A DNA stretch of 24,977 bases from Thalassospiraceae bacterium (GTDB taxonomy: Bacteria; Pseudomonadota; Alphaproteobacteria; Rhodospirillales; Magnetovibrionaceae), in contig DAOWFT010000076.1 of NCBI GenBank assembly GCA_030637845.1, forward strand, positions 1-24,977, read 5' to 3'. Below the pieces are notes generated by a model that had not been told where the DNA came from, made no database searches, and worked only from the letters and a program-made list of their open reading frames with translations. How positions within the stretch are numbered: position 1 is the first letter of the stretch; each line of letters starts with the position of its first letter. Shown here one piece after another: positions 3,924-24,909 of the stretch. A program made the position numbers and the translations under genes.

Positions 3924-4106
3924 TTAATCATCTTCGTTGGTGTTTGTGGTATTTTTCTCCTGAATATCATCATCATCGAACAAAATTCGATTGGCCGAAC
4001 CCTCCATATCATCAAACTGCCCTGATTTAAGCGCCCACAGAAATGCCGCCAGAGCTACTCCGCCCAACAACAGTGCCACGGGAATAAGATAGAGCAAAAT
4101 ATCCAT
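3924..4106 (-). CDS. ccoS: cbb3-type cytochrome oxidase assembly protein CcoS/FixS
   Basis: 60 aa with MDILLYLIPVAL...FLWALKSGQFDDMEG...ILFDDD, the CcoS signature; last gene of ccoGHIS, TGATG-coupled to ccoI. Confidence 0.95.
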   Translation of the reverse strand: MDILLYLIPVALLLGGVALAAFLWALKSGQFDDMEGSANRILFDDDDIQEKNTTNTNEDD

Positions 4107-6478
4107 CAGTTTTTACCCCTTTCGCCGCTCTGACTACCCAGCCCACCCAGCCTAAGAGAATTACCAATTACCACCAGCGATGATGATGACATGGCGATGG
4201 CGGCGATCAGTGGCGTCACCAACCCCAGCATCGCCAGTGGAATGGTAGAGGCATTATACACAAATGAAAGCGCAAAGTTTTGCTTAATCAGGTTATCTGC
4301 ACGGCGGGCTACTTCCAGAGCCTCAATCACCGGCGCCAACTTATCTCCCTGATAAATAATATCAGCGGCGGTTTGTGAAATATCCGCAGCGCTTGATGGT
4401 GACAGCGATACATGCGCGCCCGCCAATGCCGGGGCATCGTTTATGCCGTCACCCACCATCAGCACATGACGCCCCTCAGCCGCAAGCTCTGTAAGGCGTG
4501 CAGCTTTATCGGTGGGTGTAAAACCTGCGTTCCAATTTTTTATATTTAGCGTTTTGGCAATCTGGGCAACCGTTTCTATTCGGTCACCGGAAAGAAGCTC
4601 GACCCCAAGCCCCATTCCCTGCAATTCATTTACCACCTTGGCAGCATCGGAACGCAATCGATCAACAAAGGCAAAGCAAATCGGAGAAAAATCTGGCCGC
4701 ACCAGCCATAACTCCGGACCGATTGCGGCAACGCTATCATCGACCCCGCACCAATCACGTCGCCCCAAACGAATTTCCCCCGCATCGGTTTTAAGCAACA
4801 ATCCAGCCCCGGGAACCTCCTGCACCCCTTCAATCGGCGTTACGCCATCGCCCACCACCCGCGTTATGGCGCGGGACAAGGGGTGCTTACTAACCGCCGC
4901 CATGGCGGCTGCCAGCTCAAGGTCGTCATTATTGATGTCATCACGGTTGGAAAGTTCCGGTCTGCCCATTGTCAGGGTTCCGGTTTTATCAAGCACAACA
5001 TAATCCACCTCGGCCAAGCGCTCCAGCGCGGTGCCGGATTTAAGCAACATTCCCCGACGCAAAAACCGCCCACTCGCCACAACCTGCACCGCCGGCACCG
5101 CCAGAGCCAACGCACATGGACAAGTAATAATCAGCACCGCCACCGAAATCATCAGCGCTTGCTGCCACGGGGCACCGACCACCAGCCACCAAATGATAAA
5201 TGCTATCAACGCAAGGCTATGAACCACCGGGGCGTACAGCGCCGAAACACGGTCAGCAATAGCAACGTAGCGTGCGCGCCCTTCTTCGGCGAGTTCCATC
5301 AGCCGCAGTATTTCCGCCAGCAATGTATCCTCGCCCACAGCGGTTACACGAATGATTAGGGGGCTGGTTATGTTCATTGTGCCGGCAAACACATCAATTT
5401 CCGGCTTGGCAACTGCCGGGATGCTTTCGCCATTGATAAGCTGTGTATCGATATCGCTGATGCCATCCACAACCCTGCCATCAACCGAAATTCGTTCCCC
5501 CGCACTTACCAGCACCCGCATACCCGGCGCAACCTTGGTTGGGGGCACTACGTGGCGGATGCCGTTATCATCTAAAATCGTTATTGCCCTGGCACCAAGG
5601 GCCAGTAAATGCTCACCCATGGAGCGGGCCCGGCCACGGGCGCGGCTATCTAGGTAACGACCGACCAATAAAAAGAATAATAACGTAATGGCAGAATCAA
5701 AATATACATGCTCACCGCCACGAACGGTTTCAAACAGGCTCATGCCCGATGCCAGCAGAACCGCTATTGAGACCGGAACATCCATATTGGTGCGCCCGGC
5801 CTTAAGTGCGATTATGGCGGAGCGATAAAACGGCACCCCGGAAAAAGCCACGGCCGGAAGCGCAATTAACGCCGATAACCAATGCATCAGATCGCGCGTG
5901 GCCGGGCCCATACCTTGAAAATAACCGGCCCACACCGAAACAGAAAACAACATGACATTACCGGCGGCAAAACCGGCAACGGCCATGCTGATAAGCAGGT
6001 TTTTTTCATAGGCCCGGGTTTCTTCCCCCAGAACCAGGGGATCAAACGGTGCCGCCTTGTATCCCAATTGGCCGATTAAACCTACAAGCTCCGATATATC
6101 GGCCTTGTCCGGATGCCATTTTAATACCAGTCGTCGGGTGGTCATATTAATGCGCGCATGCACGACCCCAGCCTGACGCGCCAGCACGCTTTCTATCAAC
6201 CATACACAAGCCGCACATTGCATTCCTTCGATCATCAGGTGCAATGATGAGATTCCGTCATCTTCGGTTTTTACATAAGAGGAAAAGTCAAAGAGCGTTT
6301 CGTCTTCATCCGGTCGCATGGGGCGTATATCGGGGTCAATGCAGCGCTGGCTATAATATTTTTCCAGCCCCAACCCCTGCACCATGCCATAAGCCGCTTG
6401 GCAACCGGCGCAGCAAAATTCTTTCCCGCCACTACTTTTGCCGGGAATCGGTAATCCGCAATGCAGGCAATCAGACAT
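4106..6478 (-). CDS. ccoI: Cu-transporting P1B-type ATPase CcoI/FixI
   Basis: N-terminal CLHC/CCAGC metal motif, HMA domain (CAAC), CPC transmembrane motif, DKTGT phosphorylation site, GDGIND motif; position within the cco cluster. Confidence 0.95.
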   Translation of the reverse strand: MSDCLHCGLPIPGKSSGGKEFCCAGCQAAYGMVQGLGLEKYYSQRCIDPDIRPMRPDEDETLFDFSSYVKTEDDGISSLHLMIEGMQCAACVWLIESVLARQAGVVHARINMTTRRLVLKWHPDKADISELVGLIGQLGYKAAPFDPLVLGEETRAYEKNLLISMAVAGFAAGNVMLFSVSVWAGYFQGMGPATRDLMHWLSALIALPAVAFSGVPFYRSAIIALKAGRTNMDVPVSIAVLLASGMSLFETVRGGEHVYFDSAITLLFFLLVGRYLDSRARGRARSMGEHLLALGARAITILDDNGIRHVVPPTKVAPGMRVLVSAGERISVDGRVVDGISDIDTQLINGESIPAVAKPEIDVFAGTMNITSPLIIRVTAVGEDTLLAEILRLMELAEEGRARYVAIADRVSALYAPVVHSLALIAFIIWWLVVGAPWQQALMISVAVLIITCPCALALAVPAVQVVASGRFLRRGMLLKSGTALERLAEVDYVVLDKTGTLTMGRPELSNRDDINNDDLELAAAMAAVSKHPLSRAITRVVGDGVTPIEGVQEVPGAGLLLKTDAGEIRLGRRDWCGVDDSVAAIGPELWLVRPDFSPICFAFVDRLRSDAAKVVNELQGMGLGVELLSGDRIETVAQIAKTLNIKNWNAGFTPTDKAARLTELAAEGRHVLMVGDGINDAPALAGAHVSLSPSSAADISQTAADIIYQGDKLAPVIEALEVARRADNLIKQNFALSFVYNASTIPLAMLGLVTPLIAAIAMSSSSLVVIGNSLRLGGLGSQSGERGKN

Positions 6479-6957
6479 CAGAGAACCTGAACGCGCCGCC
6501 TTAGGCGAAATGCATCACCATCACGTCTTGCGCTTATGTGTACTTCCCACAATCCGGGCAAAGGCAGCTGTAATTTCGTACTATAGGTTCCGGCAATTGC
6601 GCCCGTCTTTAAACCCACATCGTAATCGACATCGTCTTGTGATGGGCGGTACATGCGCGCCATAACCATAAGGCCGTCCAACGGTGCGCCGTCCTTACCG
6701 GTAAAATGAACCGATAAATTTCCGTCAGGATTGAAATTAAAATCTACTTTCCAGCCCAGCTCGCCCTGCTGGCGTTTGGCATCTAGGGTTTGGTTAAAGG
6801 CAAGACCCTTGGCGTAATGGTCTTCGGTAGAAAGGCCAGTCCACGAGTTTACGGCGAAATACGTAAGAAACCCGTTCACAATAACGACAATACCCAAGCC
6901 GCCAACAAACAACCAAGGATACCACCAACCGGGTTCACGACTACCAGCAATTGCCAT
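6478..6957 (-). CDS. ccoH: FixH/CcoH family protein
   Basis: WWYPWLFVGGLGIVVIVNGFLTYFAVNSW...DHYAKGLAFNQ pattern, located between ccoG and ccoI. ATG at 6957 preferred (AGGTGG upstream); the track's start at 6966 is the alternative. Confidence 0.9.
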   Translation of the reverse strand: MAIAGSREPGWWYPWLFVGGLGIVVIVNGFLTYFAVNSWTGLSTEDHYAKGLAFNQTLDAKRQQGELGWKVDFNFNPDGNLSVHFTGKDGAPLDGLMVMARMYRPSQDDVDYDVGLKTGAIAGTYSTKLQLPLPGLWEVHISARRDGDAFRLRRRVQVL

Positions 6958-7006
6958 ATTTACCACCTATCGTATTAGATATTGTTCATCTCATTACTTA
7001 TCTTAA

Positions 7007-8452
7007 CTAATCATCTGGGCCATAGAATACAGTTTCCTGCTCTATTTCCATACCGGTTTTCAGGTTAATCAGCTTAAATTCCAATTTGCTGGATTTACTT
7101 TCCAACCGTTCCGACGATACCCGTACAAAAACCCTGAAAGTTCCAATGCTATCGGGGTCAACATCCAATATAACCTCTTTGGCGCCCTTACTTTCAATGC
7201 CGACAACGGTTATCAGCGCGTTATCCAGCTCATCTGCAAGTAATATATAAGAATTGGCATGGGCCTCCATATTAAGAATCTTGAAGGTGTAACCATTGCG
7301 GATATCGCCGTTTGAAAGGGTTACAAACAGTGGGGAGCGATCACGCTGAATATTGATTTCAATTCGGTCACGGGTTGCCAGCGAAAGCACCATAATCCCT
7401 ATTACGCTGATAAGAATTGCCACATAGGCAAGAACCCGTGGGCGGAAAAAGCGTTTCTTTGCTGGGCGGCCTTCGGCTCGTGCAAGTTGATTGGAAATGG
7501 AATCATAAGCAATAAGGTTCGCCGGGCGATCAAGTTTGCTCATAATTGAGTTACAGGCATCAATACACAGCGCACAGCCGATACAGGTAAATTGCTGACC
7601 TAAACGTATATCGGTTCCGGTCGGGCAAACATTGACGCAAAGCCCGCAATCAACGCAATCACCCAAATTATTGTCGCTATCTTTTTGTTTTGCCTTGCCC
7701 CGTGGTTCGCCGCGCCATTCCTCATAGGTAACAAGCAGGGAATCTTCATCAAACATCGAGCCCTGAAAACGTGGCCACGGACACATATAAATACACACCT
7801 GTTCCCGCGCCCAGCCAGCCAATAAATAGGTAAACCCGGCAAACAGCGCGACAAACCCATAAAGCGTGCTTGAGGCGCTGCCGCTTAGCATATCCACCGC
7901 GGCGGTTGGGGCGTCGACAAAATAGAAAATCCATGCCCCGCCGGTAAGCAGGGCAATAAGTATCCAGACAATGTGCTTGATAATTTTTTTTACCGCTTTT
8001 GATATGGTTAGCGGAGAATTATCCAGTTTTATCCGTTTGTTGCGATCACCCTCTATGAAGCGCTCGGCCAACAAAAACAGGTCAGTCCATACCGTTTGCG
8101 GGCAGGTAAAACCACACCACACCCGACCCGCCAGTGCGGTTGCCAAAAATAATCCAACCGCACCTAAAATAAGAATTCCGGTCAGGTAATAAACTTCCTG
8201 CGCCCAAATTTCGATATTTAAAAAGTAACCTCTTCTTCCGGCCAGATCGAGCAGCACCGCCTGATTAGGCATATCCGGACCGCGATCCCACCTCAGCCAC
8301 GGAACCACATAATAAGAACCCAACAACACGCCCAACACTATCCATTTGAGCTGACGAAAGGTTCCCGCAATACGCTGCGGATAGACCTTGAGGTGCTTGG
8401 AGTAAAGCGAGGCATTTACCTGTTGACTATTATTGTCCGGTTCGGCGTTCAT
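7007..8452 (-). CDS. ccoG: Cytochrome c oxidase accessory protein CcoG/FixG (polyferredoxin-like)
   Basis: GRVWCGFTCPQT, CIYMCPWPRFQ, CVDCGLCVNVCP and CIGCALCIDAC motifs; multiple TM helices; C-terminal FixG-type domain (NGDIRNGYTFKILN). Confidence 0.96.
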   Translation of the reverse strand: MNAEPDNNSQQVNASLYSKHLKVYPQRIAGTFRQLKWIVLGVLLGSYYVVPWLRWDRGPDMPNQAVLLDLAGRRGYFLNIEIWAQEVYYLTGILILGAVGLFLATALAGRVWCGFTCPQTVWTDLFLLAERFIEGDRNKRIKLDNSPLTISKAVKKIIKHIVWILIALLTGGAWIFYFVDAPTAAVDMLSGSASSTLYGFVALFAGFTYLLAGWAREQVCIYMCPWPRFQGSMFDEDSLLVTYEEWRGEPRGKAKQKDSDNNLGDCVDCGLCVNVCPTGTDIRLGQQFTCIGCALCIDACNSIMSKLDRPANLIAYDSISNQLARAEGRPAKKRFFRPRVLAYVAILISVIGIMVLSLATRDRIEINIQRDRSPLFVTLSNGDIRNGYTFKILNMEAHANSYILLADELDNALITVVGIESKGAKEVILDVDPDSIGTFRVFVRVSSERLESKSSKLEFKLINLKTGMEIEQETVFYGPDD

Positions 8453-8463
8453 ATACGTTACCT

Positions 8464-8503
8464 AAAACAAGGGGCGGCACCGAAAATTTTCGGCCACCGC
8501 CCC
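8464..8503 (-). terminator. GC-rich stem-loop between ccoP and ccoG (internal terminator or mRNA-stabilising hairpin)
   Basis: GGGGCGG-ca-CCGAAAATTTTCGG-cca-CCGCCCC at 8471-8503, followed on the minus strand by TTGTTTT. Confidence 0.55.
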
Positions 8504-8527
8504 CCACGTTGATTTATAGTCCGGGCT

Positions 8528-9397
8528 TTATTGCTGCCCGCCACCTAACGAGTGAACATAGATGCTTACTTGTTTGATGGATATATCGTCCAAACGACCG
8601 TTCCATGCCGGCATAGAGCCATGTTTGGGTGTGCTTATTTGCGACATGATTTTTTCTTTGGAATTACCGTATAGCCAGATGCCATCGCTCAAACGCGGCG
8701 CACCCATATCCTGAACGCCCTCGGCGCTTTCACCGTGACAGCTAGAACATTCTTCGGCAAATATTTCCGTGCCCCGCATGGCGGCGTCCCGGTCAGATGA
8801 ATTTCCCGACAAGGACAACACATACTCTGTCACATCGGATATTTGTGCCTTGGCAAGCATATCTTCGTCACCAAAATTAGGCATCTCACCCAAGCGCGTA
8901 TCATCGTGGGTCGAGCGGATACCATAATTTATCGTGGTATAAATATCGCCAACGGTGCCACCCCACAGCCAATCATCATCGGCCAGTACCGGGTAGGAAG
9001 CGTTTCCAGAACCCGACGCGCCATGACACGGCGCACAGTTTTCGGCAAAAATCACACGCCCGCCAGCCATGGCATAATTCAAAAGTTCTGAATCCTTGGC
9101 TATGCCGCCAACCGAAAGTGCGGAGAATCTGTCCGTCCATACGGTGCGTGATTTATCGCGGGCCGCAAGTTCTTTTCGCAATTCACCGCGCGATGAATAA
9201 CCAATAACACCCTTGGTGTAACCGCTAAGTGTCGGCCATGCCGGATAAACAATCCAATAGCCAACCGACCATAGGATGCAGACATAAAAAGTATAGAGCC
9301 ACCAACGCGGCAAGGGCGTGTTCAGCTCCTTGATACCGTCCCATTCATGGCCAGTGGTTTCACGTCCGCTGACGGCGTCTTTTTCAATTTCCGCCAT
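8528..9397 (-). CDS. ccoP: cbb3-type cytochrome c oxidase subunit III
   Basis: MAEIEKDAVSGRETTGHEWDGIKELNTPLPRWW N-terminus, two CXXCH motifs (CAPCH, CSSCH); GGAGGAG RBS supports ATG at 9397. Confidence 0.97.
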   Translation of the reverse strand: MAEIEKDAVSGRETTGHEWDGIKELNTPLPRWWLYTFYVCILWSVGYWIVYPAWPTLSGYTKGVIGYSSRGELRKELAARDKSRTVWTDRFSALSVGGIAKDSELLNYAMAGGRVIFAENCAPCHGASGSGNASYPVLADDDWLWGGTVGDIYTTINYGIRSTHDDTRLGEMPNFGDEDMLAKAQISDVTEYVLSLSGNSSDRDAAMRGTEIFAEECSSCHGESAEGVQDMGAPRLSDGIWLYGNSKEKIMSQISTPKHGSMPAWNGRLDDISIKQVSIYVHSLGGGQQ

Positions 9398-9563
9398 GGT
9401 TTGCTCCTCCGTTTTCATCATCTTTGAAAATCATTTTTGCATCTTCTTCGAAACGTTTTTTGTTTTTTGGACGAAAGGCCCAAAACACAATGAAGATAAA
9501 AAGGGCCATAAGCCACAGAACCCAGCTAGATTTGGCCATTTCTACGATTGTTGCAAAGTCCAT
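9384..9563 (-). CDS. ccoQ: cbb3-type cytochrome c oxidase subunit IV (missed by the ORF track)
   Basis: Manual translation, 59 aa: MDFATIVEMAKSSWVLWLMALFIFIVFWAFRPKNKKRFEEDAKMIFKDDENGGANHGGN*. GGAGG RBS, single TM helix followed by the WAFRPKNKKRFEE motif, located between ccoO and ccoP; overlaps the ccoP start by 14 nt. Confidence 0.93.
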   Translation of the reverse strand: MDFATIVEMAKSSWVLWLMALFIFIVFWAFRPKNKKRFEEDAKMIFKDDENGGANHGGN

Positions 9564-9574
9564 TGCCTGCCCTC

Positions 9575-10300
9575 CTATCGTTCAATTGCTTTGGCATCGA
9601 GGCTGGAGAAATCAACCAACGTGCCAAGCATCTGTAGGTAGGCAATCAGGGCGTCCATTTCGGTTAACCGGGTCGGGTCGCCATCAAAATCGCCCAATGG
9701 GGCCTTGGCGTAACGGCTCTGGAAACCTTCGATGTCGCCATCGCCATCTTCGCCTGTGGCCTGTGCGTTCAGATCGTCTATTGCCCTAGCAATTTGCTCA
9801 TCGCTATAGGGTACACCGACTGCGCGCAGAGTTTTCAGATGCTCGGCGGCATCATCAAAACCAAGCAGGGTTTCTGCCATAAACGAATACCCCGGCATAA
9901 TTGATTCCGGCACCACGGCACGCGGATTTATCATATGTTCGGTATGCCATTCGTTGGAATACTTGCCGCCAACACGAGCCAAATCAGGCCCGGTACGTTT
10001 TGATCCCCATTGAAATGGATGGTCATACATGCTTTCCGCCGCCAATGAATAATGGCCATAACGTTCCGCCTCGTCGCGGAACGGCCTAATCATCTGGCTG
10101 TGACAGAGGTAGCAACCTTCGCGGATGTAAATGTTACGTCCGGCCTGTTCCAACGGGGTATAGGGGCGCATTCCATCGACCTTTTCGATGGTGTTTTCAA
10201 TTGTATAAAGCGGCACAATTTGCACCAACCCGCCAATTGATACCGTTATCAAAATGGCAATGGATAGAAGGATCGCATTGCGTTCCAAAAGTGATTGCAT
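9575..10300 (-). CDS. ccoO: cbb3-type cytochrome c oxidase subunit II
   Basis: [21 protein letters not shown] and [18 protein letters not shown] signatures. Confidence 0.98.
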
Positions 10301-10317
10301 GGTTCTGCTCCCTTCCC

Positions 10318-11772
10318 TTAATTGCCAGCGCTTGACGCAGAAGGCGCCAGAGCAATGGGTGCTTCGTCACGGGTTCTGCCCTTGGCGGTCATCCACAGAT
10401 TGTAAACCATGATAATCGCGCCAACTAGGAACAGTACGCCGCCAACTGCACGTATTACATAGTACGGATGCATGGCTTCAACCGATTCGATAAACGAATA
10501 CTGCAAGAACCCAAGCGAATCATAGGTTCGCCACATGAGGCCCTGCATAATGCCGGAAATCCACATGGCGGTGATGTAAAGAACGATGCCCATGGTCGCA
10601 AACCAGAAATGCAGGTTAACCAGACGCAGTGAATAAAGCCGTTCGCGGTTCCATAGTTTTGGAACCAGATAATAAAGCGCACCAAAGCTAACCAGCGCGT
10701 TCCAGCCCAAGGCCCCGGAATGAACGTGACCGATTGTCCAATCGGTATAATGGCTGAGCGAATTAACAACCTTTATCGCCATAAGCGGGCCTTCGAACGT
10801 GCTCATACCATAGAACCCGACCGAGGTAACAAGGAAACGCAGCACCGGATCGGTGCGCAGTTTATCCCACGCCCCTGACAGGGTCATAATGCCGTTTATC
10901 ATTCCGCCCCACGATGGCATCCACAACATGATGGAGAACGTCATGCCCAGTGTCTGCGCCCAATCGGGCAGCGCGGTGTAATGAAGATGGTGAGGACCGG
11001 CCCATATATAAAGAAACGTAATGGCCCAAAAATGAATTACCGATAAACGATACGAATAAACCGGGCGCTGGGCCTGTTTGGGAATGAAGTAATACATCAT
11101 GCCAAGGAAGCCAGCGGTGAGAAAGAAGCCAACCGCATTATGCCCATACCACCACTGGGTCATGGCATCGCGCACGCCTGCCCAGGCAATGTAACTTTTG
11201 GCACCAAACCACGAAACGGGAAGTGCCACGTTATTGCCAATATGCAACAGGGCAACGGTGATTATAAAGGCAAGGAAAAACCAGTTGGCCACATAAATAT
11301 GAGATTCTTTGCGCTTAATCAGCGTACCGGCAAACACAACCAGATACATAACCCAGATAACCGTCAGCCATATATCGGTATACCATTCGGGTTCGGCATA
11401 TTCTTTACTTTGGGTAACGCCAAGAACATAGCCCGATGCCGCCAAGACGATAAATATCTGGTATCCCCAGAAAACCATGTTGGCCAGTTTCGGCCCGCCA
11501 AATAACGGAACCCGGCAGGTGCGCTGAACAATATAAAGAGAAGAACCGATAAGGATGTTTCCGCCAAAGGCAAAAATAACCGCCGAGGTATGAACCGGGC
11601 GCAAGCGACCAAAACTTGTCCATTCCAAATCTAAATTAAGTATCGGATAAGCTAACTGAAAAGCAATTGTTATGCCGACAAGAAAACCGACTATGCCCCA
11701 AAAGCTCGCCGCTATGACGAACTTTTTCACGACCTCATCATCATAGGTCGGCATTGCTATTGCTTGATTCAT
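10318..11772 (-). CDS. ccoN: cbb3-type cytochrome c oxidase subunit I
   Basis: [28 protein letters not shown] and [11 protein letters not shown] heme/CuB ligand motifs. ATG at 11772 has a GGGAG RBS (the track starts 30 nt earlier). Confidence 0.98.
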
Positions 11773-11963
11773 GGATGGTCTCCCTCGGTAGACGAATGGC
11801 ACTATTAATATTGCGCTCTTATATTCAAAGTACTAACAGCTATAAAAGTAGTGACAACAGTAACAGATTTCAGCATTTAATTAACTACACAATTTTATAT
11901 GTAATGCATTAGTCTTGCCTTATATATATTTATAGCTTGTAGCTTAAACGACAGCGCCTAGAT

Positions 11964-11977
11964 TTGACATAAATCAA
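11964..11977. promoter_or_regulatory. FNR/FixK-type binding site between divergent ccoN and the TauE/DsbD_2 gene
   Basis: TTGAC-ataa-ATCAA, 9/10 match to consensus; FNR/FixK control of ccoNOQP is established in proteobacteria. Confidence 0.8.
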
Positions 11978-12013
11978 AAGAGCTAAAAAACCCGGAAAAG
12001 AGCTAAAAAACCC
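11976..12013. repeat. Perfect 18-bp direct repeat with 20-bp period
   Basis: AAAAGAGCTAAAAAACCC at 11976-11993 and 11996-12013, separated by GG. Confidence 0.9.
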
Positions 12014-12046
12014 AACTTAGCCAAATTACTGTGGAGCATCGGCACT

Positions 12047-12826
12047 ATGGAACAGGACCCGGCATTTACCCATCTTCTTGTTGCAGGGCTTGCATACTGC
12101 CAAACAACTGCCAGCGACAATGCCACCACACTTATTAGCCTGTTTCTGGCGGGATTGGCTGGCAGCGCCGCCCACTGTGTTGGCATGTGCGGGCCGTTTG
12201 TGCTGTCTCAGGTTACGGCCCGACTAGAAAATGTCCCCGCATCTCAAATGCATGAATTTCACCGCATCAGGGGTGCGGCACTTGTCCCCTACCATCTGGG
12301 GAGGCTTACCACCTATGCGGCGTTGGGTGGGGTTGCGGCATTTTTGACCGGTGGGGTTTATGAGTTGATGAACCTTGGCTGGATAGCGTCCCTGCTGCTG
12401 GTATTTGCCGCAATATTTTTTGCGGGCTATGCCTTGCAGGTATTAAAGATCCCCCTGCCCCGCTTTTTTTCCAACAAAACCAAAGGCACCACAGGGCCAA
12501 TTACCAAATATATGGATAAATTTGCCCGGCCATTGTTCAACCGCCCAACGGGATTGCGCGGATACGCCCTTGGTATAACGTTGGGATTCCTGCCCTGCGG
12601 ACTTCTTTACGGTGCGCTGGCAGCAGCATCGGCACCCGGAGATGTGCTGGCAGGTGTTTTTGCAATGATGGCGTTTGGTCTGGGAACCATTCCGGCATTG
12701 TTGGGCATTGGCATTATTGGCCATGTGGCGGGTGGGCGCTGGCTAGGTGTCACGCACTGGCTGGCACCGGGATTGCTTTTGATTAATTCTGCGGTATTGC
12801 TGTTTATGGCGTGGCGATTGGTTTAG
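12047..12826 (+). CDS. Sulfite exporter TauE/SafE / DsbD_2-type multi-pass membrane protein (probable heavy-metal or thiol-handling cbb3 accessory)
   Basis: HCVGMCGP and GFLPCGLLY motifs, YHLGRLTTY, about 6-7 TM segments; GGAG RBS. Such proteins commonly neighbour cco clusters. Confidence 0.85.
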   Translation: MEQDPAFTHLLVAGLAYCQTTASDNATTLISLFLAGLAGSAAHCVGMCGPFVLSQVTARLENVPASQMHEFHRIRGAALVPYHLGRLTTYAALGGVAAFLTGGVYELMNLGWIASLLLVFAAIFFAGYALQVLKIPLPRFFSNKTKGTTGPITKYMDKFARPLFNRPTGLRGYALGITLGFLPCGLLYGALAAASAPGDVLAGVFAMMAFGLGTIPALLGIGIIGHVAGGRWLGVTHWLAPGLLLINSAVLLFMAWRLV

Positions 12827-12931
12827 TGGCTGTTTTAGTGACTATTATATAAGTGATTGGCATCACTGCGCCACAGCACCAACTATGGCAAAAACATAGC
12901 CACCGATAGGTAGGCCAATACTGAACAAAAG

Positions 12932-12959
12932 CTGAATTTCAGGTTCAACCTTAATTCAG
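12932..12959. other. Imperfect inverted repeat (possible operator)
   Basis: CTGAATT-tc-AGGTT-c-AACCT-t-AATTCAG, about 70 nt upstream of the candidate small ORF. Confidence 0.35.
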
Positions 12960-13028
12960 GTATGTGCCTCTATAACGGTATTTGTATCTAATATATTGTG
13001 ATATCGCCTGAATAAAGGATTTTTAACA

Positions 13029-13109
13029 ATGTTTCGTCGTATAGATTTCGCCCTATGGGCAATGGCAGTTTCATGGGTGCTGGTTGGGCTTGGCGGTAAA
13101 ATTGCCTAA
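13029..13109 (+). CDS. Candidate 26-aa single-pass membrane peptide
   Basis: MFRRIDFALWAMAVSWVLVGLGGKIA*; AAGGA RBS 9 nt before the ATG; basic N-terminus followed by a hydrophobic stretch; sits in an otherwise empty ~340-nt intergenic gap. Confidence 0.5.
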   Translation: MFRRIDFALWAMAVSWVLVGLGGKIA

Positions 13110-13130
13110 GCTTGCTGGTTTTAGCAAAAA

Positions 13131-13166
13131 CAGAACAAACAAAAAGCCCGCAACTTTCGGGCTGCC
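13131..13166 (-). terminator. Rho-independent terminator of the binding protein-kinase operon
   Basis: Minus strand AGCCCG-aaagttg-CGGGCT followed by TTTTGTTTGTTCTG, directly after the stop at 13167. Confidence 0.75.
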
Positions 13167-20427: not shown

Positions 20428-20458
20428 AATGTCCGCTCTGCGGCCTGCAGCAGATAGC
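20428..20458 (+). repeat. Degenerate ~30-bp palindromic repeat, copy A (9-nt spacer)
   Basis: AATGTCCGCTC-tgcggcctg-CAGCAGATAGC; the left arm matches the family consensus well and the right arm (AGCAGA) partly. Confidence 0.5.
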
Positions 20459-20583
20459 CTAGGGGGCTGGGGCTACGTACGGAACTCTTGCGCCGTAAAG
20501 ACTCGTAAGGTGTTTTACTCTAACCGGAGTTATTGCATACTAAAGCTGTGGGATAACATTTAATCTGAATGTGAGCTAAAGCC

Positions 20584-22284
20584 GTGGCGAGTACGATAAA
20601 TTACCTGACGGACATTGTGATCCTGCTCGCCGCTGCCGTCGTTGCTGTTCCGCTTTTCCAGTCCATGCGCATGGGAGCCATACCCGGATTTGTAATCGCT
20701 GGCGTGATTGTCGGCCCCTACGGCTTGAAGCTCATCGGAAACGTAGAAGATATAGGTCAACTCGCAGAGCTTGGCGTCGTTTTGCTGCTGTTTATCATCG
20801 GAATCGAACTCAAACCCGCGCGCCTATGGATGATGCGAAGATTGTTGTTCGGTCTGGGCTCTCTCCAATTGCTCTGCACCAGTGTCGCCCTTGTGGCCGC
20901 CGCCCACTATTTGTTTGGCATTCCTCTTCGGGCCGCAGTTCTCATCGGCCCGGCGCTGGCGCTGTCCTCCACGGCCTTCGTGCTCCAGTTGCTTACCGAA
21001 AATAAGATGCTGTCCTCCGAACAGGGCCGAGCTTCCATTGCCATCCTTTTGCTGCAAGATTTAGCCGTTGTCCCTTTGCTGGCCTTGGTATCACTCCTCG
21101 CCATGCCGGCCCTAACCTTGGCCGAAGATCTCGTGATTGCGCTGGGCGAGGCGGCCCTTATCATTGGCTTGGTTATTCTTGCTGGGCGTTACCTTCTGCA
21201 GCCGATCTTTCACCTTATGGCCAAGTCACGTAATCCAGAGGTGTTTACAGCATCCGCCGTATTGCTTGTTCTGGGCGCCGCCGTATTGATGGAACACATC
21301 GGTCTTTCGATGGCCATGGGGGCGTTTCTGGCTGGATTGATGATCGCCGATTCCACATTCCGCCATCAGGTCATTGCCGAAACACAGCCTTTTCGTGGAC
21401 TGCTGCTTGGGTTGTTCTTCATGTCGATGGGTATGACCCTGAACCTCGATCAACTCTTCCATCAACCTTTATTCCTACTCAGTTTGGTTGCGGCTTTGAT
21501 TGTCTTGAAAGCCGTTGTGATCTGGCCCTTGGCGCGCTTGTTTGGGCTCAGCGGGAAAAGCGCCCTCACGGTTGCGCTTCTGCTCGCCCAAAGTGGGGAG
21601 TTTGCACTCATCGTGTTTACGGTGGCGTTCGGGACAGGCCTCTTGGATGAAGACTTGTTCCAGAGGCTTCTTTTGGTGGTCATACTCAGCATGCTGGTGA
21701 CGCCGATTCTGGCCAGACTGGCGCGGAAAATTAAGAAATCAGAGGAAAAAAAACATGTTGTCGCACCAGTTCATGCGGCTGCCGAAGAACCTATCCCCGC
21801 ACCTGTTTTTATCATCGGCTTCGGTCGGGTTGGGCGTAAAATCGGCAGCATCCTCGAATTGGCCAAGGTGCCGTTTTCGGCAATCGACAACGACCCGACC
21901 CTCGTCGCGCGAGAACATGCCCGAGGGCGCCCGGTGTTTTACGGTGATGCCGAAAGGCCCGCCGTCTTGAAAGCCATGGGAGTTGAAGGGGCACGCTTGG
22001 CAATTGTCGCACTGGACGACTTTGAGATAACAGAACAGCTTGTATCCACATTGCGCGACAATTTTCCCGAACTGCTGATTCTTGCCCGTGGGCAAAATAG
22101 GGAGCTTTGCGAGAGACTCAAGGCCCTTGGCGTAGATGTGGTTGTATCGGAAACCTTAGAGACCAGCGTAGAGCTTGCACGCGCTGCGTTGAGCAAAATT
22201 AGCACCCCGGAAGATGAAATTAGCTTATTCATCGAGGACTTCCGGCGCAGCTACCGTGAACAGCATAAAATCGGGAGGCCCTGA
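20584..22284 (+). CDS. CPA2-family cation:proton antiporter (KefB/KefC-like) with C-terminal TrkA_N/KTN domain
   Basis: LAELGVVLLLFIIGIEL, LSSTAFVLQLL, LLLQDLAVVP, SMAMGAFLAG and LAQSGEFA motifs; Rossmann IIGFGRVG and FYGDA in the C-terminal domain. Confidence 0.95.
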   Translation: MASTINYLTDIVILLAAAVVAVPLFQSMRMGAIPGFVIAGVIVGPYGLKLIGNVEDIGQLAELGVVLLLFIIGIELKPARLWMMRRLLFGLGSLQLLCTSVALVAAAHYLFGIPLRAAVLIGPALALSSTAFVLQLLTENKMLSSEQGRASIAILLLQDLAVVPLLALVSLLAMPALTLAEDLVIALGEAALIIGLVILAGRYLLQPIFHLMAKSRNPEVFTASAVLLVLGAAVLMEHIGLSMAMGAFLAGLMIADSTFRHQVIAETQPFRGLLLGLFFMSMGMTLNLDQLFHQPLFLLSLVAALIVLKAVVIWPLARLFGLSGKSALTVALLLAQSGEFALIVFTVAFGTGLLDEDLFQRLLLVVILSMLVTPILARLARKIKKSEEKKHVVAPVHAAAEEPIPAPVFIIGFGRVGRKIGSILELAKVPFSAIDNDPTLVAREHARGRPVFYGDAERPAVLKAMGVEGARLAIVALDDFEITEQLVSTLRDNFPELLILARGQNRELCERLKALGVDVVVSETLETSVELARAALSKISTPEDEISLFIEDFRRSYREQHKIGRP

Positions 22285-22324
22285 AACGCCCTCGCTGCAA
22301 CTGACCTCGCAGGAGCAATGCAGG

Positions 22325-22354
22325 GTCGCCTGCTTATGACCCAAAGCGGTTATT
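22325..22354 (+). repeat. Degenerate ~30-bp palindromic repeat, copy B (8-nt spacer), overlapping the kinase stop codon
   Basis: GTCGCCTGCTT-atgaccca-AAGCGGTTATT; 15/17 identical to copy C over 22332-22348. Confidence 0.65.
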
Positions 22355-24062
22355 CCGAGGTCCGCATTGTAAAGAAGAAAGCGCTCCCCTCTCCCGGGTC
22401 ACTCTCAGCCCAAATACGCCCCCCGTTCTTCTCAACCATTTCCCTGCAAAGCGGAAGCCCCAAGCCGGTGCCCTCTTCACCCGCCGTGCCCGTGGTCGAG
22501 GTTCTTTGATCAAGGCTGAAGATCGTTTTCGCCTGTTCCTCCGACATGCCGACGCCGGTATCGGACACCATTACCTGAGCCATATCTCCATCCTGCAGGG
22601 ACGACACTGTGACCGATCCACCGGACGGTGTGAACTTCAGGGCGTTGGCGACAAGATTGCGGATGACCGTATCCACCATATTTGGGTCGGAGAAGACAGT
22701 GGTTTCCTGAATTTCGTTTATCAGCTCAATTTCTTTCTGCTGGGCGACCGGCTTTAGAACCTCGATGCTTTTGTGGGCGATACCCCGCAACGGAACCATC
22801 TTCTGTTCTAGCGTCGTGCCCTCCATTTGCAGGAGGGACCAGTCGAGAAGGTTTTGCAAAAGCTCAAAGACCCGGTTTCCCGCCTGATTCGTATGCATTG
22901 CGTATTCGGTTAAATCTTCCCTGCTGAAACTGTCCGACATGTTCGCCATCATATCGGTCATGCCAAGGAGGGCGTTAAAGGGGCTCCTGAGATCGTGAGC
23001 GATGATGGAGAAGAACCTGTCCTTGGTGCGGATTTCATGCTTGAGTTGCTCCCGGCTTATTTTAAGCTCATCCTCTGCCTTCTTTCGCTTAGTGATGTCT
23101 TTGAAGGTAACAACGGCCCCAATGATTTCTTCGTCCTTAAAGATGGGGGTTGATGCGCACTCAACCGGAAAGTGCGACCCATCCTTACGCCACATGACCT
23201 CATCGGTTATGTGGTGCATCTTGCCGTCACGAAAAGCAGCGCACAACTGACATTCCTCGTATGAATAGGGGGTACCGTCGGAATGACTATGGTGGATAAA
23301 TGCATGCGTCAACTGGCCGATCAGTTCGCCTTCTGAATAGCCCAGCATCTCGCATGCAGCCGGATTGATAAAAGTCGTGTAGCCATCAGGGTCCAGCCCA
23401 AAAATTCCATCCCCCACCGATGCAAGAAGTAACCTGTTTTGTTCTTCGGAAAACAAAAGCAACCGATCTGCTTCTTTGCGCTCGGTAATGTCGTGAACGG
23501 TCCCCATCATTTTCACAGGGGCTCCGCTCTCGTCGAAAGTCACTTTGGCTTGTTCGTGAACGATCCTCTCGCTACCGTCGGGAAGAGCGATCCTGTGTTC
23601 GATGTTGTAGGGTTTATTTTCGTGCAGCGCAGCATTGACAGACTGCGCCACGAGCGCCCGGTCATCCGGATGCACGGCCTCAATGAATACATCATAGGTT
23701 GCCTTGAACGCACCCGGGCGGGCGCCGAAAATACGGTAGATTTCATCCGACCACCACAGGTCGCCTGTCGCAATATCCCAATCCCAGTTGCCCATGCGGG
23801 CAATACGTTGCGCTTCGTTCAGTCTCGCTTCCGCACGGGACAGGGCTTGGTGCGACAGCTTTTGCAGCTGAATTGTCCGGAGCGAAAGCCCGATAACAAA
23901 GCCGGCTACGCTACCGAAAAAAATGGGCACAAAAAACCCTTCGGCAATGAGCGGGGCGCCGGTGGCCAGTTTTTGAATAACCGCAAGCACCACAAGCAAA
24001 GCCGCGCCCAGGGTAGCGTAGAGAAAAGGTTTAATGCCGATGTTACCAAGAAGGCTGTGCAT
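22350..24062 (-). CDS. Membrane-anchored PAS-PAS sensor histidine kinase
   Basis: Two N-terminal TM helices; PAS_3 (MGNWDWDI...VHPDD...EHRIALPDG); second PAS (GLDPDGYTTFINPAA...RKDGSHFPVE); H-box IAHDLRSPF; N-box NLVANALKFT; DTGVGM and GTGLGL; GGAG RBS. Confidence 0.94.
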   Translation of the reverse strand: MHSLLGNIGIKPFLYATLGAALLVVLAVIQKLATGAPLIAEGFFVPIFFGSVAGFVIGLSLRTIQLQKLSHQALSRAEARLNEAQRIARMGNWDWDIATGDLWWSDEIYRIFGARPGAFKATYDVFIEAVHPDDRALVAQSVNAALHENKPYNIEHRIALPDGSERIVHEQAKVTFDESGAPVKMMGTVHDITERKEADRLLLFSEEQNRLLLASVGDGIFGLDPDGYTTFINPAACEMLGYSEGELIGQLTHAFIHHSHSDGTPYSYEECQLCAAFRDGKMHHITDEVMWRKDGSHFPVECASTPIFKDEEIIGAVVTFKDITKRKKAEDELKISREQLKHEIRTKDRFFSIIAHDLRSPFNALLGMTDMMANMSDSFSREDLTEYAMHTNQAGNRVFELLQNLLDWSLLQMEGTTLEQKMVPLRGIAHKSIEVLKPVAQQKEIELINEIQETTVFSDPNMVDTVIRNLVANALKFTPSGGSVTVSSLQDGDMAQVMVSDTGVGMSEEQAKTIFSLDQRTSTTGTAGEEGTGLGLPLCREMVEKNGGRIWAESDPGEGSAFFFTMRTSE

Positions 24063-24215
24063 TGCGATCTCCCGATGGCGTATCGATCGCCAACCTAATT
24101 ACTCACATAAGGGAACATTAGAATTATGTCATATAATGCTTTGGGAGTCACCAGATGCCAACTTTGGCGAACTATCGTAAACCCAGAATAGTTGACCAGC
24201 ATGCTCCCTGCTGTA

Positions 24216-24245
24216 AACGTCAGCCTATGACCCAATGCGTGAATT
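24216..24245 (+). repeat. Degenerate ~30-bp palindromic repeat, copy C (8-nt spacer)
   Basis: AACGTCAGCCT-atgaccca-ATGCGTGAATT; spacer identical to copy B; lies between the kinase promoter region and the GNAT stop. Confidence 0.65.
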
Positions 24246-24266
24246 AAATGTGGGTGGTTTGGCTAT

Positions 24267-24794
24267 TCAAGAAGTCCAAAGTGCAATTTGACGCCATGGT
24301 TCTGGCACGGATATTTTTCCTTCATGGGGCGCTTCTGCATCGCATAGCTTGAGGGACTGCCATGCTCCATGCCATTCCGTCGGCAATGGATATGGTGTAG
24401 TGACTTTGTCTTCTGCCTTGAATCCAAAGCGACTGTAATAAGCAGGGTCGCCGAGAACAAAGATATAGCCAATTGTAGCGCTTTCCATTTGCTTAAAACT
24501 CGATTGAACCAACGCGCTTCCGATCCCCTGTTTATGCAGAGCTGGTGTGACCGCAAGCGGACCTAAAAGTGCGACCTTATCTTTCCCTCCCTCAACGTGG
24601 CAAAACGTGAAACTGATATGCCCTACAATTATCTTTTCACGTATCGCAACGAGCGATATTGCTCTCTGCCCAAGATTCAGAAGCCCCCTCACCAGCGGCA
24701 ACAGGTCTTCGTCAGGGAAGGTGTCCACATACAGTTGTTCGATCCCGGCGGCATCACTGGGTCGGCTTTCCCGAATTTCAAGATTGCTAATCAT
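24267..24794 (-). CDS. GNAT family N-acetyltransferase (YhbS-like)
   Basis: LLGPLAVTPALHKQGIGSALV acetyl-CoA motif A and VLGDPAYYSRFGF motif; ATG at 24794 with AAGGGA RBS. Confidence 0.93.
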   Translation of the reverse strand: MISNLEIRESRPSDAAGIEQLYVDTFPDEDLLPLVRGLLNLGQRAISLVAIREKIIVGHISFTFCHVEGGKDKVALLGPLAVTPALHKQGIGSALVQSSFKQMESATIGYIFVLGDPAYYSRFGFKAEDKVTTPYPLPTEWHGAWQSLKLCDAEAPHEGKISVPEPWRQIALWTS

Positions 24795-24832
24795 TTTCCC
24801 TTTATAGATGTGGTTGTGCTGGCGAAACAGCA

Positions 24833-24862
24833 ATTATCTGCTTCTGGCTAAAAGCAGACGTT
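24833..24862 (+). repeat. ~30-bp palindromic repeat, copy D1 (8-nt spacer; best-preserved dyad)
   Basis: ATTATCTGCTT-ctggctaa-AAGCAGACGTT; 7 contiguous base pairs of perfect dyad (TCTGCTT/AAGCAGA). Confidence 0.65.
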
Positions 24863-24878
24863 TCCTGAGGATTGCTAT

Positions 24879-24909
24879 TATGACCGCTTTAAAGCCGAAG
24901 GCAGGTGCT
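24879..24909 (+). repeat. Degenerate ~30-bp palindromic repeat, copy D2 (9-nt spacer)
   Basis: TATGACCGCTT-taaagccga-AGGCAGGTGCT, starting 16 nt after D1. Confidence 0.5.

What the first reader, a model, noticed from the sequence alone, without database searches (positions are those of the whole stretch)
20428..24909. Cassette-like array: unrelated accessory genes each bounded by co-oriented ~30-bp palindromic sites
Seen: every gene junction in the right 4.5 kb carries a degenerate copy of one motif, and by shared spacers or arm similarity they appear co-oriented. A 20428 AATGTCCGCTC-N9-CAGCAGATAGC; B 22325 GTCGCCTGCTT-atgaccca-AAGCGGTTATT; C 24216 AACGTCAGCCT-atgaccca-ATGCGTGAATT; D1 24833 ATTATCTGCTT-ctggctaa-AAGCAGACGTT; D2 24879 TATGACCGCTT-N9-AGGCAGGTGCT. 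Layout: A-[Kef antiporter]-B-[PAS-PAS kinase]-C-[GNAT]-D1/D2. The 'atgaccca' spacer type sits at the 3' end of both minus-strand genes. The cargo genes have no functional link to each other. Established: tyrosine-recombinase core sites (loxP, dif, FRT) are two inverted arms around a 6-8-bp asymmetric spacer, and integron and pdif systems build single-gene modules between such sites. Inference: the 11+8+11 geometry and one-gene-per-interval spacing suggest a gene-cassette or module-shuffling system that is neither attC nor dif, with the enzyme encoded elsewhere. From memory, similar GTCCGC...GCGGAC palindromes occur as intergenic repeats in other alphaproteobacteria, but I cannot name a described family or cognate enzyme.
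Basis: partly seen in the sequence, partly recalled or inferred. Interest (0 to 1): 0.82.

Follow-up and report, generated by a model that had tools for sequence, protein, structure and literature searches.

The report
Worn hairpin repeats bordering imported genes
The five sites are real but mostly decayed copies of a widespread 24-25-bp DNA hairpin family that marks the borders of horizontally moved gene modules, from marine bacteria to the cargo slot of P2-like coliphages, and the enzyme that acts on it, if any, is still unknown.

Summary
The letters and coordinates are as reported. Tested with models built only from other genomes, A, B, C and D1 each exceed background. D2 qualifies only as D1's partner at the family's 46-bp spacing. 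No other junction of the window carries a copy. Only D1 can still pair, so the rest are relics.

The family consensus is AAT-GTCCGCTT-(8/9-nt loop)-AAGCGGAC-ATT, with a few recurrent loop classes.
- It is abundant and perfect in a congener and patchy across Rhodospirillales.
- There it forms 46-bp doublets at gene junctions, co-oriented along contigs.
- It flanks a GNAT module shared between Alphaproteobacteria and Nitrospinota.
- It bounds the swappable Z/fun cargo slot of P2-like coliphages, where GenBank records of 2004 already annotate the repeats.

No RAYT, integron integrase or small integrase tracks the family.

Best reading (0.55): kef, kinase and GNAT are three imported hairpin-bounded modules, and the array is a fossil. 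Main rival (0.33): REP/BIME-like repeats that spread on their own. This scan met the same family before on other DNA (e1-221627, e1-5208428).

The parts
20428..20458 (+). Site A: decayed hairpin copy (GTCCGC left arm intact, right arm GCAGAT, 9-nt loop plus TC/CA) in the divergent aldehyde-dehydrogenase/kef spacer, about 130 nt before the kef start
   Evidence: Independent arm PWM score 13.0, reached by 2e-6 of MAG positions. Orientation cannot be assigned.
20584..22284 (+). Kef-type cation/proton antiporter gene (Na_H_Exchanger + TrkA_N), module 1
   Evidence: Pfam. Best DNA matches are 71-76% in other families and genera; congeners give only short partial hits. The G037 homologue carries a type-a-like site about 110-170 nt upstream.
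22325..22354 (+). Site B: decayed type-a copy (loop ATGACCCA) between the convergent kef and kinase genes; the kinase stop codon (22350-22352) lies in its right arm
   Evidence: 22/28 to the type-a consensus derived from G001, the best match in the MAG. Arm PWM 6.9.
22350..24062 (-). PAS-PAS-HisKA-HATPase sensor kinase gene, module 2
   Evidence: Pfam. Among 40 relatives only the kinase core matches, at 65-67%. One low-depth Logan contig joins 22291 to 24260 and so lacks B, the kinase and C (weak).
24216..24245 (+). Site C: decayed type-a copy (loop ATGACCCA), same orientation as B, 21 nt beyond the GNAT stop; it can no longer pair
   Evidence: 21/28 to the type-a consensus, second best in the MAG. 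GNAT homologues in 6 other taxa carry a family hairpin at the equivalent place.
24267..24794 (-). GNAT acetyltransferase gene (175 aa), module 3; horizontally shared across phyla
   Evidence: Pfam. 89% nt identity to G039, of another family. Homologues of 73-85% aa identity in Nitrospina, Nitrospinaceae, Anderseniella, Hyphomicrobiales and Thalassospiraceae MAGs.
24833..24862 (+). Site D1: type-b copy (loop CTGGCTAA), the only one that still forms a hairpin (TCTGCTT/AAGCAGA); it abuts the conserved GNAT promoter region
   Evidence: Arm PWM 18.5, best type-b match in the MAG. Near-identical copies in G003 and G036. The conserved upstream flank of GNAT in other taxa begins at this hairpin's arm.
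24879..24909 (+). Site D2: badly decayed second member of a D1-D2 doublet, offset 46 bp
   Evidence: Arm PWM only 1.9, but at the canonical 46/47-bp doublet spacing (p about 4e-4). G039 has a triplet of hairpins at the same place upstream of its GNAT.

Best explanation
The five sites are worn copies of one widespread family of DNA hairpin palindromes. The consensus is AAT-GTCCGCTT-(8 or 9 nt loop)-AAGCGGAC-ATT. The loops fall into a few recurrent asymmetric classes: a ATGACCCA, b ATGGCTAT/CTGGCTAA, d TACCCCCGA.

Shown:
- The family is fresh and abundant in some genomes.
- It stands as 46-bp-period doublets at gene junctions, co-oriented along contigs.
- Its members delimit gene modules that occur in different genomic contexts and in distant hosts.

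Inferred:
- kef, the PAS kinase and GNAT are three imported, hairpin-bounded modules laid side by side.
- The hairpins act at the DNA level as the end or junction sequences at which such modules are joined. The enzyme would act in trans, is not encoded in this window and is not identified.
- In this genome the array is a fossil, because four of the five copies can no longer pair.
For: Family and membership:
- Exact GTCCGC-N11-14-GCGGAC counts are 19 in the congener G001, against 2 for the reversed control. G036 has 12 against 2, and G039 9 against 3.
- The strict pattern occurs in 18 of 151 Rhodospirillales genomes, with controls near zero. Counts reach 30 and 26 per genome, and the same loop classes recur across families.
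- The window's sites score far above background with models built from other genomes.

Grammar:
- Copies form doublets, triplets and quadruplets at 45-47 bp. The loop classes follow a fixed order and the 22-nt linkers vary in sequence.
- Type-a and type-b orientation is uniform within every G001 contig examined (13 within-contig agreements, p about 1e-4), whatever the gene strand.

Module borders:
- GNAT homologues in Rhodospirillales, Hyphomicrobiales and Nitrospinota share conserved flanks. Those flanks begin and end at family hairpins, and the neighbouring genes differ.
- The Nitrospina genomes have no genome-wide family (0-2 exact copies). They nevertheless carry three sites in a row beside GNAT.
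- In P2-like phages the G-FI (Z/fun) slot is bounded by two members. Homology between P2 and P24C9 stops at their inner edges.
- Enteric arrays read [b]cargo[c][b]cargo[c].
- GenBank records AJ512677-85 annotate these as left and right inverted repeats.
- Yersinia phage P37 has an empty slot without either hairpin.

Synteny:
- The site-free part of the window (3968-13113) is syntenic at about 80% identity in congeners.
- The three right-hand genes are not found together anywhere.
- Genes between doublets in G001 are non-syntenic in G002-G005, and their orthologues there lack sites.
Against: - No enzyme was found.
  - Y1_Tnp (RAYT) is absent from G000, G001, G036, G039, G085 and G048.
  - No integron integrase scores above the cut-off.
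  - A small FimB-like recombinase stands beside a doublet once, but it has no homologue in G001 or G036.
- No recombination product was shown. The read-level joints are one weak low-depth contig plus artefacts from other family copies.
- In G001 doublets occupy nearly every junction over several kb, including junctions next to long genes and a tRNA gene. That looks like REP/BIME spread.
- Decay is by uncompensated single transitions: CG 42, TG 14, CA 14, TA 3. There is little sign of selection on pairing.
- The upstream regions of kef in this window and in G037 do not align beyond about 40 nt. The two sites there are positional analogues only.
Confidence: 0.55

Rival explanations
1. REP/BIME- or REPIN-like selfish or structural repeats. 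The hairpin doublets multiply on their own into intergenic DNA of some lineages. They are carried along passively when DNA is transferred. They coincide with module borders only because dispersed repeats offer short homology for ordinary recombination. In this window they are decayed leftovers with no role in moving the three genes.
For: - Copy number is high, copies are near-identical and the distribution among close relatives is patchy.
- Doublets consist of two hairpins in inverted loop orientation, like REPINs, and tandem clusters resemble BIMEs.
- Copies occur in divergent, convergent and tandem spacers and beside a tRNA gene.
- Orthologues of the flanked genes in congeners lack the sites, which fits insertion of repeats in G001.
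- No dedicated recombinase was found.
- An earlier follow-up in this scan reached this reading on another genome (e1-5208428).
Against: - No cognate RAYT. Y1_Tnp is absent from six genomes that carry the family, and the RAYTs of G152, G161 and G077 are flanked by quite different palindromes.
- Doublet linkers keep their length but not their sequence, unlike copied REPINs.
- Nitrospina and E. coli have no genome-wide spread, yet carry the hairpins exactly at the borders of foreign modules.
- The same stem and loop classes occur in hosts of different phyla, whereas REP families are usually lineage-specific (established knowledge of REP/RAYT systems).
Confidence: 0.33
2. RNA-level elements: terminator-like or 3'-end-protecting hairpins that belong to each gene's transcription unit and travel with it.
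For: - B and C lie just beyond the stop codons of the kinase and GNAT. GNAT homologues keep a hairpin 20-95 nt after the stop.
- D1 is flagged as terminator-like on the minus strand.
Against: - The consensus flank is ATT, not a U-tract. The terminator scan finds no more than shuffles give.
- Orientation follows the contig, not the gene strand.
- Copies lie in divergent promoter regions (site A, D1/D2).
- There is no preference for G-U over C-A on either strand.
- Rfam finds nothing.
Confidence: 0.05
3. Chance resemblance picked out by eye among about 800 nt of spacer DNA.
For: - The sites were chosen by hand.
- Arm complementarity of A, B, C and D2 is near chance.
- MAG-wide counts of weak matches equal Markov background.
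Against: - Models built from other genomes rank B, C and D1 first in the whole MAG for their loop classes.
- Per-position tail frequencies run from 3.6e-7 to 1e-4.
- Homologous loci in other genomes carry good copies at the same places.
Confidence: 0.02

Closest known systems
[quoted passage not shown]
   Same: - The stem is the same 8 bp (GTCCGCT[CT]/AAGCGGAC) and the loops are related: TGTGCCAG is close to the reverse complement of type b, and TGAGCGAA is close to type a.
- The hairpins stand exactly at the borders of unrelated, swappable cargo genes.
- Tandem cassettes are joined by hairpin doublets.
- No enzyme is known.
   Different: - In the phages the hairpins lie inside longer annotated repeats of 91-113 bp, with a short outer inverted repeat (AATCTGACAG). 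I did not find these in the marine modules.
- The doublet period is 40-42 bp, not 46 bp.
- E. coli carries only 1-6 copies per genome.
- What the 2004 paper proposes in detail could not be checked.
REP sequences, BIME clusters and REPINs mobilised by RAYT (Y1 HUH) transposases
   Same: Short GC-rich intergenic palindromes; tens of copies; inverted doublets and tandem clusters; patchy among relatives; decay where inactive.
   Different: - No cognate RAYT is flanked by these hairpins.
- There is no 5' GTAG tag.
- Linkers within doublets are not conserved.
- The same family occurs in different phyla and in phages.
- The family is associated with the borders of transferred modules.
Integron gene cassettes (IntI, attI, attC)
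   Same: Unrelated single-gene units in co-oriented arrays, each with a folded-DNA-type site at a gene end; GNAT acetyltransferases are common cargo.
   Different: - The hairpins are 24-25 bp rather than 57-141-bp attC sites with R''/L''/L'/R' boxes and a GTTRRRY core.
- No IntI was found.
- Genes of 1.7 kb are long for cassettes.
- Each junction carries two distinct hairpins.
dif and pdif modules (XerC/XerD) of Acinetobacter plasmids
   Same: Sites of about 28 bp with dyad arms that delimit discrete single-function modules; the enzyme is encoded elsewhere.
   Different: - The arm sequences bear no likeness to XerC/XerD arms.
- The sites are co-oriented rather than alternating.
- The arms are a perfect palindrome in fresh copies.
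PeSL 'mobile regulatory cassettes' of T4-type phages (Arbiol, Comeau and Krisch 2010; from memory)
   Same: Short conserved stem-loop motifs flank small accessory genes and are thought to promote modular shuffling.
   Different: PeSLs include an early promoter, are phage-clade-specific and are thought to act through homologous recombination. No sequence likeness was tested.

Membership tests
GTCCGC hairpin family (as defined here from G001/G039 copies) | Arms AAT-GTCCGCTT / AAGCGGAC-ATT separated by 8 or 9 nt | tested here: met
   Independent PWM scores: D1 18.5, A 13.0, B 6.9, C 2.2, D2 1.9. Tail frequencies run from 3.6e-7 to 1e-4.
GTCCGC hairpin family (as defined here from G001/G039 copies) | Loop of one of the recurrent classes (a ATGACCCA, b CTGGCTAA/ATGGCTAT, d TACCCCCGA) | tested here: met
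   B and C carry the exact type-a loop, and D1 a type-b loop identical to a G036 copy. The loops of A and D2 are only loosely alike.
GTCCGC hairpin family (as defined here from G001/G039 copies) | Doublets at 45-47-bp period | tested here: met
   D1 and D2 are offset by 46 bp. The MAG's other locus, C40:7688/7735, is offset by 47 bp.
REP/REPIN-RAYT systems | Multi-copy intergenic imperfect palindromes, often as inverted doublets | tested here: met
   (in relatives; only about 9 decayed copies in this MAG).
REP/REPIN-RAYT systems | A cognate RAYT (Y1_Tnp, PF01797) gene in the genome, itself flanked by the family's REPs | tested here: not met
   No PF01797 match in G000, G001, G036, G039, G085 or G048. 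The Y1_Tnp genes of G152, G161 and G077 are flanked by other palindromes. MAG incompleteness (63-94%) leaves some room.
REP/REPIN-RAYT systems | Conserved 5' GTAG-type tetranucleotide next to the hairpin | tested here: not met
   The consensus flanks are AAT and ATT.
Integron cassettes | Integron integrase IntI (TIGR02249) present | tested here: not met
   Best score 86 bits against a cut-off of 265 in G001, G085, G152, G036 and G039. These are generic Xer-type hits, as in all 14 control genomes.
Integron cassettes | attC architecture (57-141 bp, R''-L''...L'-R', GTTRRRY core) | tested here: not met
   Direct reading: a 24-25-bp self-paired hairpin with no GTTRRRY core.
dif/pdif Xer modules | XerC and XerD arm consensus around a 6-bp centre; sites alternate in orientation | tested here: not met
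   The arms GTCCGCTT/AAGCGGAC bear no likeness to the dif arms (recalled consensus). The sites are co-oriented.
P2 Z-region inverted repeats | Family hairpins at both borders of a variable cargo segment | tested here: met
   For GNAT: C and D1 in the window, and equivalent hairpins in 6 other taxa. The P2 hairpins themselves score 19.8-25.1 with the marine PWM.
P2 Z-region inverted repeats | Longer flanking repeats (91-113 bp) with the outer inverted repeat AATCTGACAG | not tested
   Seen in AJ512685/AJ512680. Not searched systematically in the window; none noticed by eye.
Intrinsic terminators | GC-rich stem followed by a U-tract, downstream of genes in the sense orientation | tested here: not met
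   4 terminator-like sites against 5.9 in shuffles. Only D1 is flagged, with a poor tail. Orientation does not follow the gene strand.
IS200/IS605-type single-strand transposons (hairpin ends, Y1 HUH TnpA in trans) | Distinct left and right subterminal hairpins on one strand, orientation tied to replication, TnpA present | tested here: inconclusive
   The two-hairpin grammar and the contig-wide co-orientation fit. No Y1 transposase is present in most carrier genomes. Replication direction cannot be known in MAG contigs.

The most novel reading that the evidence does not exclude
A hairpin-directed gene-module system of very broad host range. Modules carry a distinct left (a-type) and right (b-type) GTCCGC hairpin and are inserted, stacked and swapped by a still unidentified trans-acting enzyme. 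The system would work in marine Alphaproteobacteria, Nitrospinota, uncultured phages and the Z/fun cargo slot of P2-like coliphages. It would be a cassette system distinct from integrons, Xer/pdif modules and RAYT/REP.
Probability: 0.35. Interest if true: 0.85.

Novelty: new member of a known kind. Interest (0 to 1): 0.55.

Why it matters
How phages and bacteria swap small accessory and defence genes at fixed hotspots is an open question. For the P2 hotspots the published discussion I could read offers only speculation about recombination near cos (PMC9122126).

The P2 Z-slot border hairpins belong to a family that also borders moving modules in distant environmental bacteria. That gives a concrete cis-element to test in E. 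coli genetics, and a sequence tag for finding exchangeable modules in metagenomes.

For this window alone the result is modest. The three genes are imported and the sites are fossils.

Tried and rejected
- **Leave-one-out PWM from the five sites themselves**. It gave strong scores but is circular, because the sites were hand-picked. I replaced it with models from other genomes.
- **Dyad-consensus scan of the MAG**. Counts equal Markov background apart from the known sites, so the family is not abundant in this genome.
- **Rfam**. Nothing relevant; one weak CRISPR-DR hit lies elsewhere.
- **RAYT, IntI and a small FimB-like integrase as cognate enzyme**. None tracks the family.
- **Compensatory covariation and strand-specific wobble**. 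Neither was found.
- **Exact-protein look-up of GNAT**. Not on record.
- **Literature.** A search by sequence strings gave only noise. Nilsson 2004 and Odegrip 2006 are not held. Papers that cite them do not describe the repeats.
- **Read laying for circles**.
  - The back-joint 24857 to 22327, with 23 nt between, and the joint 22349 to 24840 are best explained as other family doublets in the metagenome, not circles.
  - The joint 22291 to 24260 is a single contig of depth 2.3 with 30 nt on one side. It is too weak to count.
- **Alignment of kef upstream regions, window against G037**. They are not homologous beyond about 40 nt.
- **A 30-nt match at window 13125-13154 to G003**. It is an ordinary terminator-like motif and is unrelated.
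Full report
**Setting**

The window is contig C5 of a 1.40-Mb MAG with 208 contigs and 50% G+C, 76% complete. Cold-seep metagenomes hold it. One congener, G001, is a Thalassospiraceae MAG, identified by matching contig lengths.

The right 4.5 kb encodes three genes:
- a Kef-type antiporter at 20584-22284 (+);
- a PAS-PAS histidine kinase at 22350-24062 (-);
- a GNAT acetyltransferase at 24267-24794 (-), whose true start is the ATG at 24794.

**The observation**

As palindromes they are poor. Arm complementarity is 6, 5, 5, 8 and 4 of 11, and only D1 is a real hairpin.

A leave-one-out matrix from the five sites scored high, but it is biased by hand-picking. The MAG-wide dyad scan pointed to one more locus, C40:7688/7735. 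Its two sites lie 47 bp apart and their loops resemble those of B/C and D1.

**The family**

Relatives show what the motif is. The pattern GTCCGC-N11-14-GCGGAC occurs:
- 19 times in the congener G001, against 2 for the reversed control;
- 12 times in G036, against 2;
- 9 times in G039, against 3.

The copies read AAT-GTCCGCTT-loop-AAGCGGAC-ATT. The loops fall into a few classes: ATGACCCA, ATGGCTAT/CTGGCTAA, TACCCCCGA and a GC-rich class. Copies stand in tandem doublets, triplets and quadruplets at a 45-47-bp period.

A strict pattern search of 151 Rhodospirillales genomes finds the family in 18, with controls near zero. Counts reach 30 and 26 copies per genome, and the same loop classes recur in different families.

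With a matrix and full-length consensuses built only from G001 and G039 copies:
- D1, A and B lie far in the tail of the MAG's score distribution;
- B and C are the two best matches in the whole MAG to the type-a consensus;
- D1 is the best match to type b;
- D2 is convincing only as D1's partner at +46;
- none of the window's ten other spacers scores 4 or more.

The MAG holds about nine copies, all decayed. Five of them lie in these 4.5 kb.

**Are they module borders?**

*Synteny.* None of 40 relatives keeps the three genes together. The site-free stretch 3968-13113 is syntenic at about 80% identity in four congeners.
- kef matches best outside the genus, at 71-76%.
- The kinase has no orthologue among the relatives.
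- GNAT is 89% identical to G039, which belongs to another family, but only 78-79% identical to the congener.

*GNAT across phyla.* GNAT homologues of 73-85% amino-acid identity occur in Rhodospirillales, Anderseniella, Hyphomicrobiales, Thalassospiraceae and Nitrospina/Nitrospinaceae MAGs.
- Many carry a family hairpin 20-95 nt after the stop.
- Many carry a type-b hairpin abutting a conserved 55-nt promoter region.
- Beyond the hairpins nothing is shared, and the neighbouring genes differ.
- The Nitrospina genomes have no genome-wide family. One of them still shows three sites at three successive junctions beside GNAT.
- In G039, four junctions in a row carry hairpins around a phosphofructokinase, GNAT and a racemase-like gene. 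The next 10 kb has none.

*P2-like phages.* The same palindrome turned up in IMG/VR contigs. Many are P2-like coliphages.
- In P24C9 a NUDIX+HAD cargo lies exactly between two family hairpins in the G-FI (Z/fun) slot.
- P2 itself has them on either side of fun(Z).
- Homology between P2 and P24C9 stops at the inner edges of the hairpins.
- Yersinia phage P37 has an empty slot with neither hairpin.
- Enteric contigs show arrays of the form [b]cargo[c][b]cargo[c], with 40-42-bp doublets at the joints.
- GenBank records AJ512677-85, which match the cited 2004 study by Nilsson et al. in their P2-EC phage names and Z-region titles, annotate a 'left inverted repeat' that ends at one hairpin and a 'right inverted repeat' that starts at the other.
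- I could not read that paper. Its title shows that site-specific recombination was proposed.

**Grammar in the congener**

In G001, doublets occupy almost every junction of some contigs. The first hairpin is type b, and the second is type a or d with its loop inverted. The 22-nt linker keeps its length but not its sequence.

Type-a and type-b orientation is uniform within each contig, whatever the gene strand. Genes between doublets in G001:C322 lie on different contigs in G003. Their orthologues in G002-G005 have no sites.

By this grammar, C-GNAT-D1 is a complete a...b unit, and D2 opens the next unit. B, C and D1 are co-oriented.

**Mechanism**

No enzyme emerged.
- Y1_Tnp is absent from six carrier genomes. 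Where it is present, it is flanked by its own, different REPs.
- No IntI was found.
- A truncated FimB-like recombinase stands next to one doublet but has no homologue in G001 or G036. The 'small integrase' lead of an earlier scan note was therefore not reproduced.

The variable stem position changes by single, uncompensated transitions without strand bias. This argues against an RNA hairpin under selection and fits decay of DNA elements.

Terminator features are lacking, and Rfam is silent.

Logan contigs gave one weak joint that skips B, the kinase and C. The other joints are best read as other family doublets.

**Verdict**

Identity is secure. The sites are decayed members of a widespread hairpin family.

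The family stands at the borders of horizontally exchanged modules in three independent settings: GNAT across phyla, the P2 Z slot, and non-syntenic genes in the congener. I therefore favour the reading that the hairpins are the junction sequences of mobile modules and that this window holds a fossil array of three such modules (0.55). The REP/BIME-like reading remains a strong rival (0.33). What would settle it is listed under next steps.

This scan met the family before on other DNA, with opposite conclusions (e1-221627, e1-5208428). My data add the cross-phylum GNAT module, the link to the annotated P2 repeats, the negative enzyme tests and the co-orientation.

Noticed in passing
window 24267-24794 (-); L050-L066: The GNAT gene has homologues of 73-85% amino-acid identity in MAGs of two phyla (Alphaproteobacteria and Nitrospinota) from oxygen-minimum-zone and seep samples, with a conserved 55-nt upstream region. 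This is a clear case of recent cross-phylum transfer of a small acetyltransferase of unknown substrate.
   Followed up: partly
window 20314: Contigs from three of the four metagenome runs carry an extra 12-nt unit (CCACCAATCTGG) in a short tandem repeat of the aldehyde-dehydrogenase/kef spacer. This is strain-level repeat-number variation.
   Followed up: no
G000:C40:7688-7765 (L001) and G000:C18:5955, 6593: These are the only other recognisable copies of the hairpin family in this MAG: a 47-bp doublet on C40 and two decayed copies on C18. Their neighbouring genes were not annotated.
   Followed up: partly
L217, L218, L222 (G161:C207, G152:C47, G152:C4): Y1_Tnp (RAYT-like) genes are each flanked, about 750 bp apart, by two copies of their own AT-rich palindrome (for example AATAAAGGTTCC/GGAACCTTTATT). 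These are classic RAYT-REP pairs of other, separate repeat families in the same order.
   Followed up: no
L155 and L131 (IMG/VR contigs of 6.5 and 7.1 kb): Both contigs carry hairpin doublets or triplets of the family at both ends, in opposite orientation, enclosing about 6 kb of co-oriented genes. This could be a larger hairpin-bounded element or an assembly break at repeats.
   Followed up: no
L231:1128-1262 (Yersinia phage P37, NC_070907): A P2-like phage whose G-FI slot is empty. The G stop runs straight into the terminator before the FI promoter, with neither border hairpin nor the flanking repeats. It would serve as the 'unoccupied site' reference.
   Followed up: partly
L156:3083-3688: A 201-aa FimB/FimE-like tyrosine recombinase reading frame stops before the catalytic tyrosine region. 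It lies 140 bp from a perfect hairpin doublet in a phage-like contig, and a 53%-identical relative is in L079.
   Followed up: partly
window 3968-13113: This 9-kb block is collinear at 79-80% identity in four congeners. Synteny ends at 13113, just before the solute-binding-protein/kinase pair, at an ordinary terminator-like motif. This is a second synteny break in the window, without family hairpins.
   Followed up: partly
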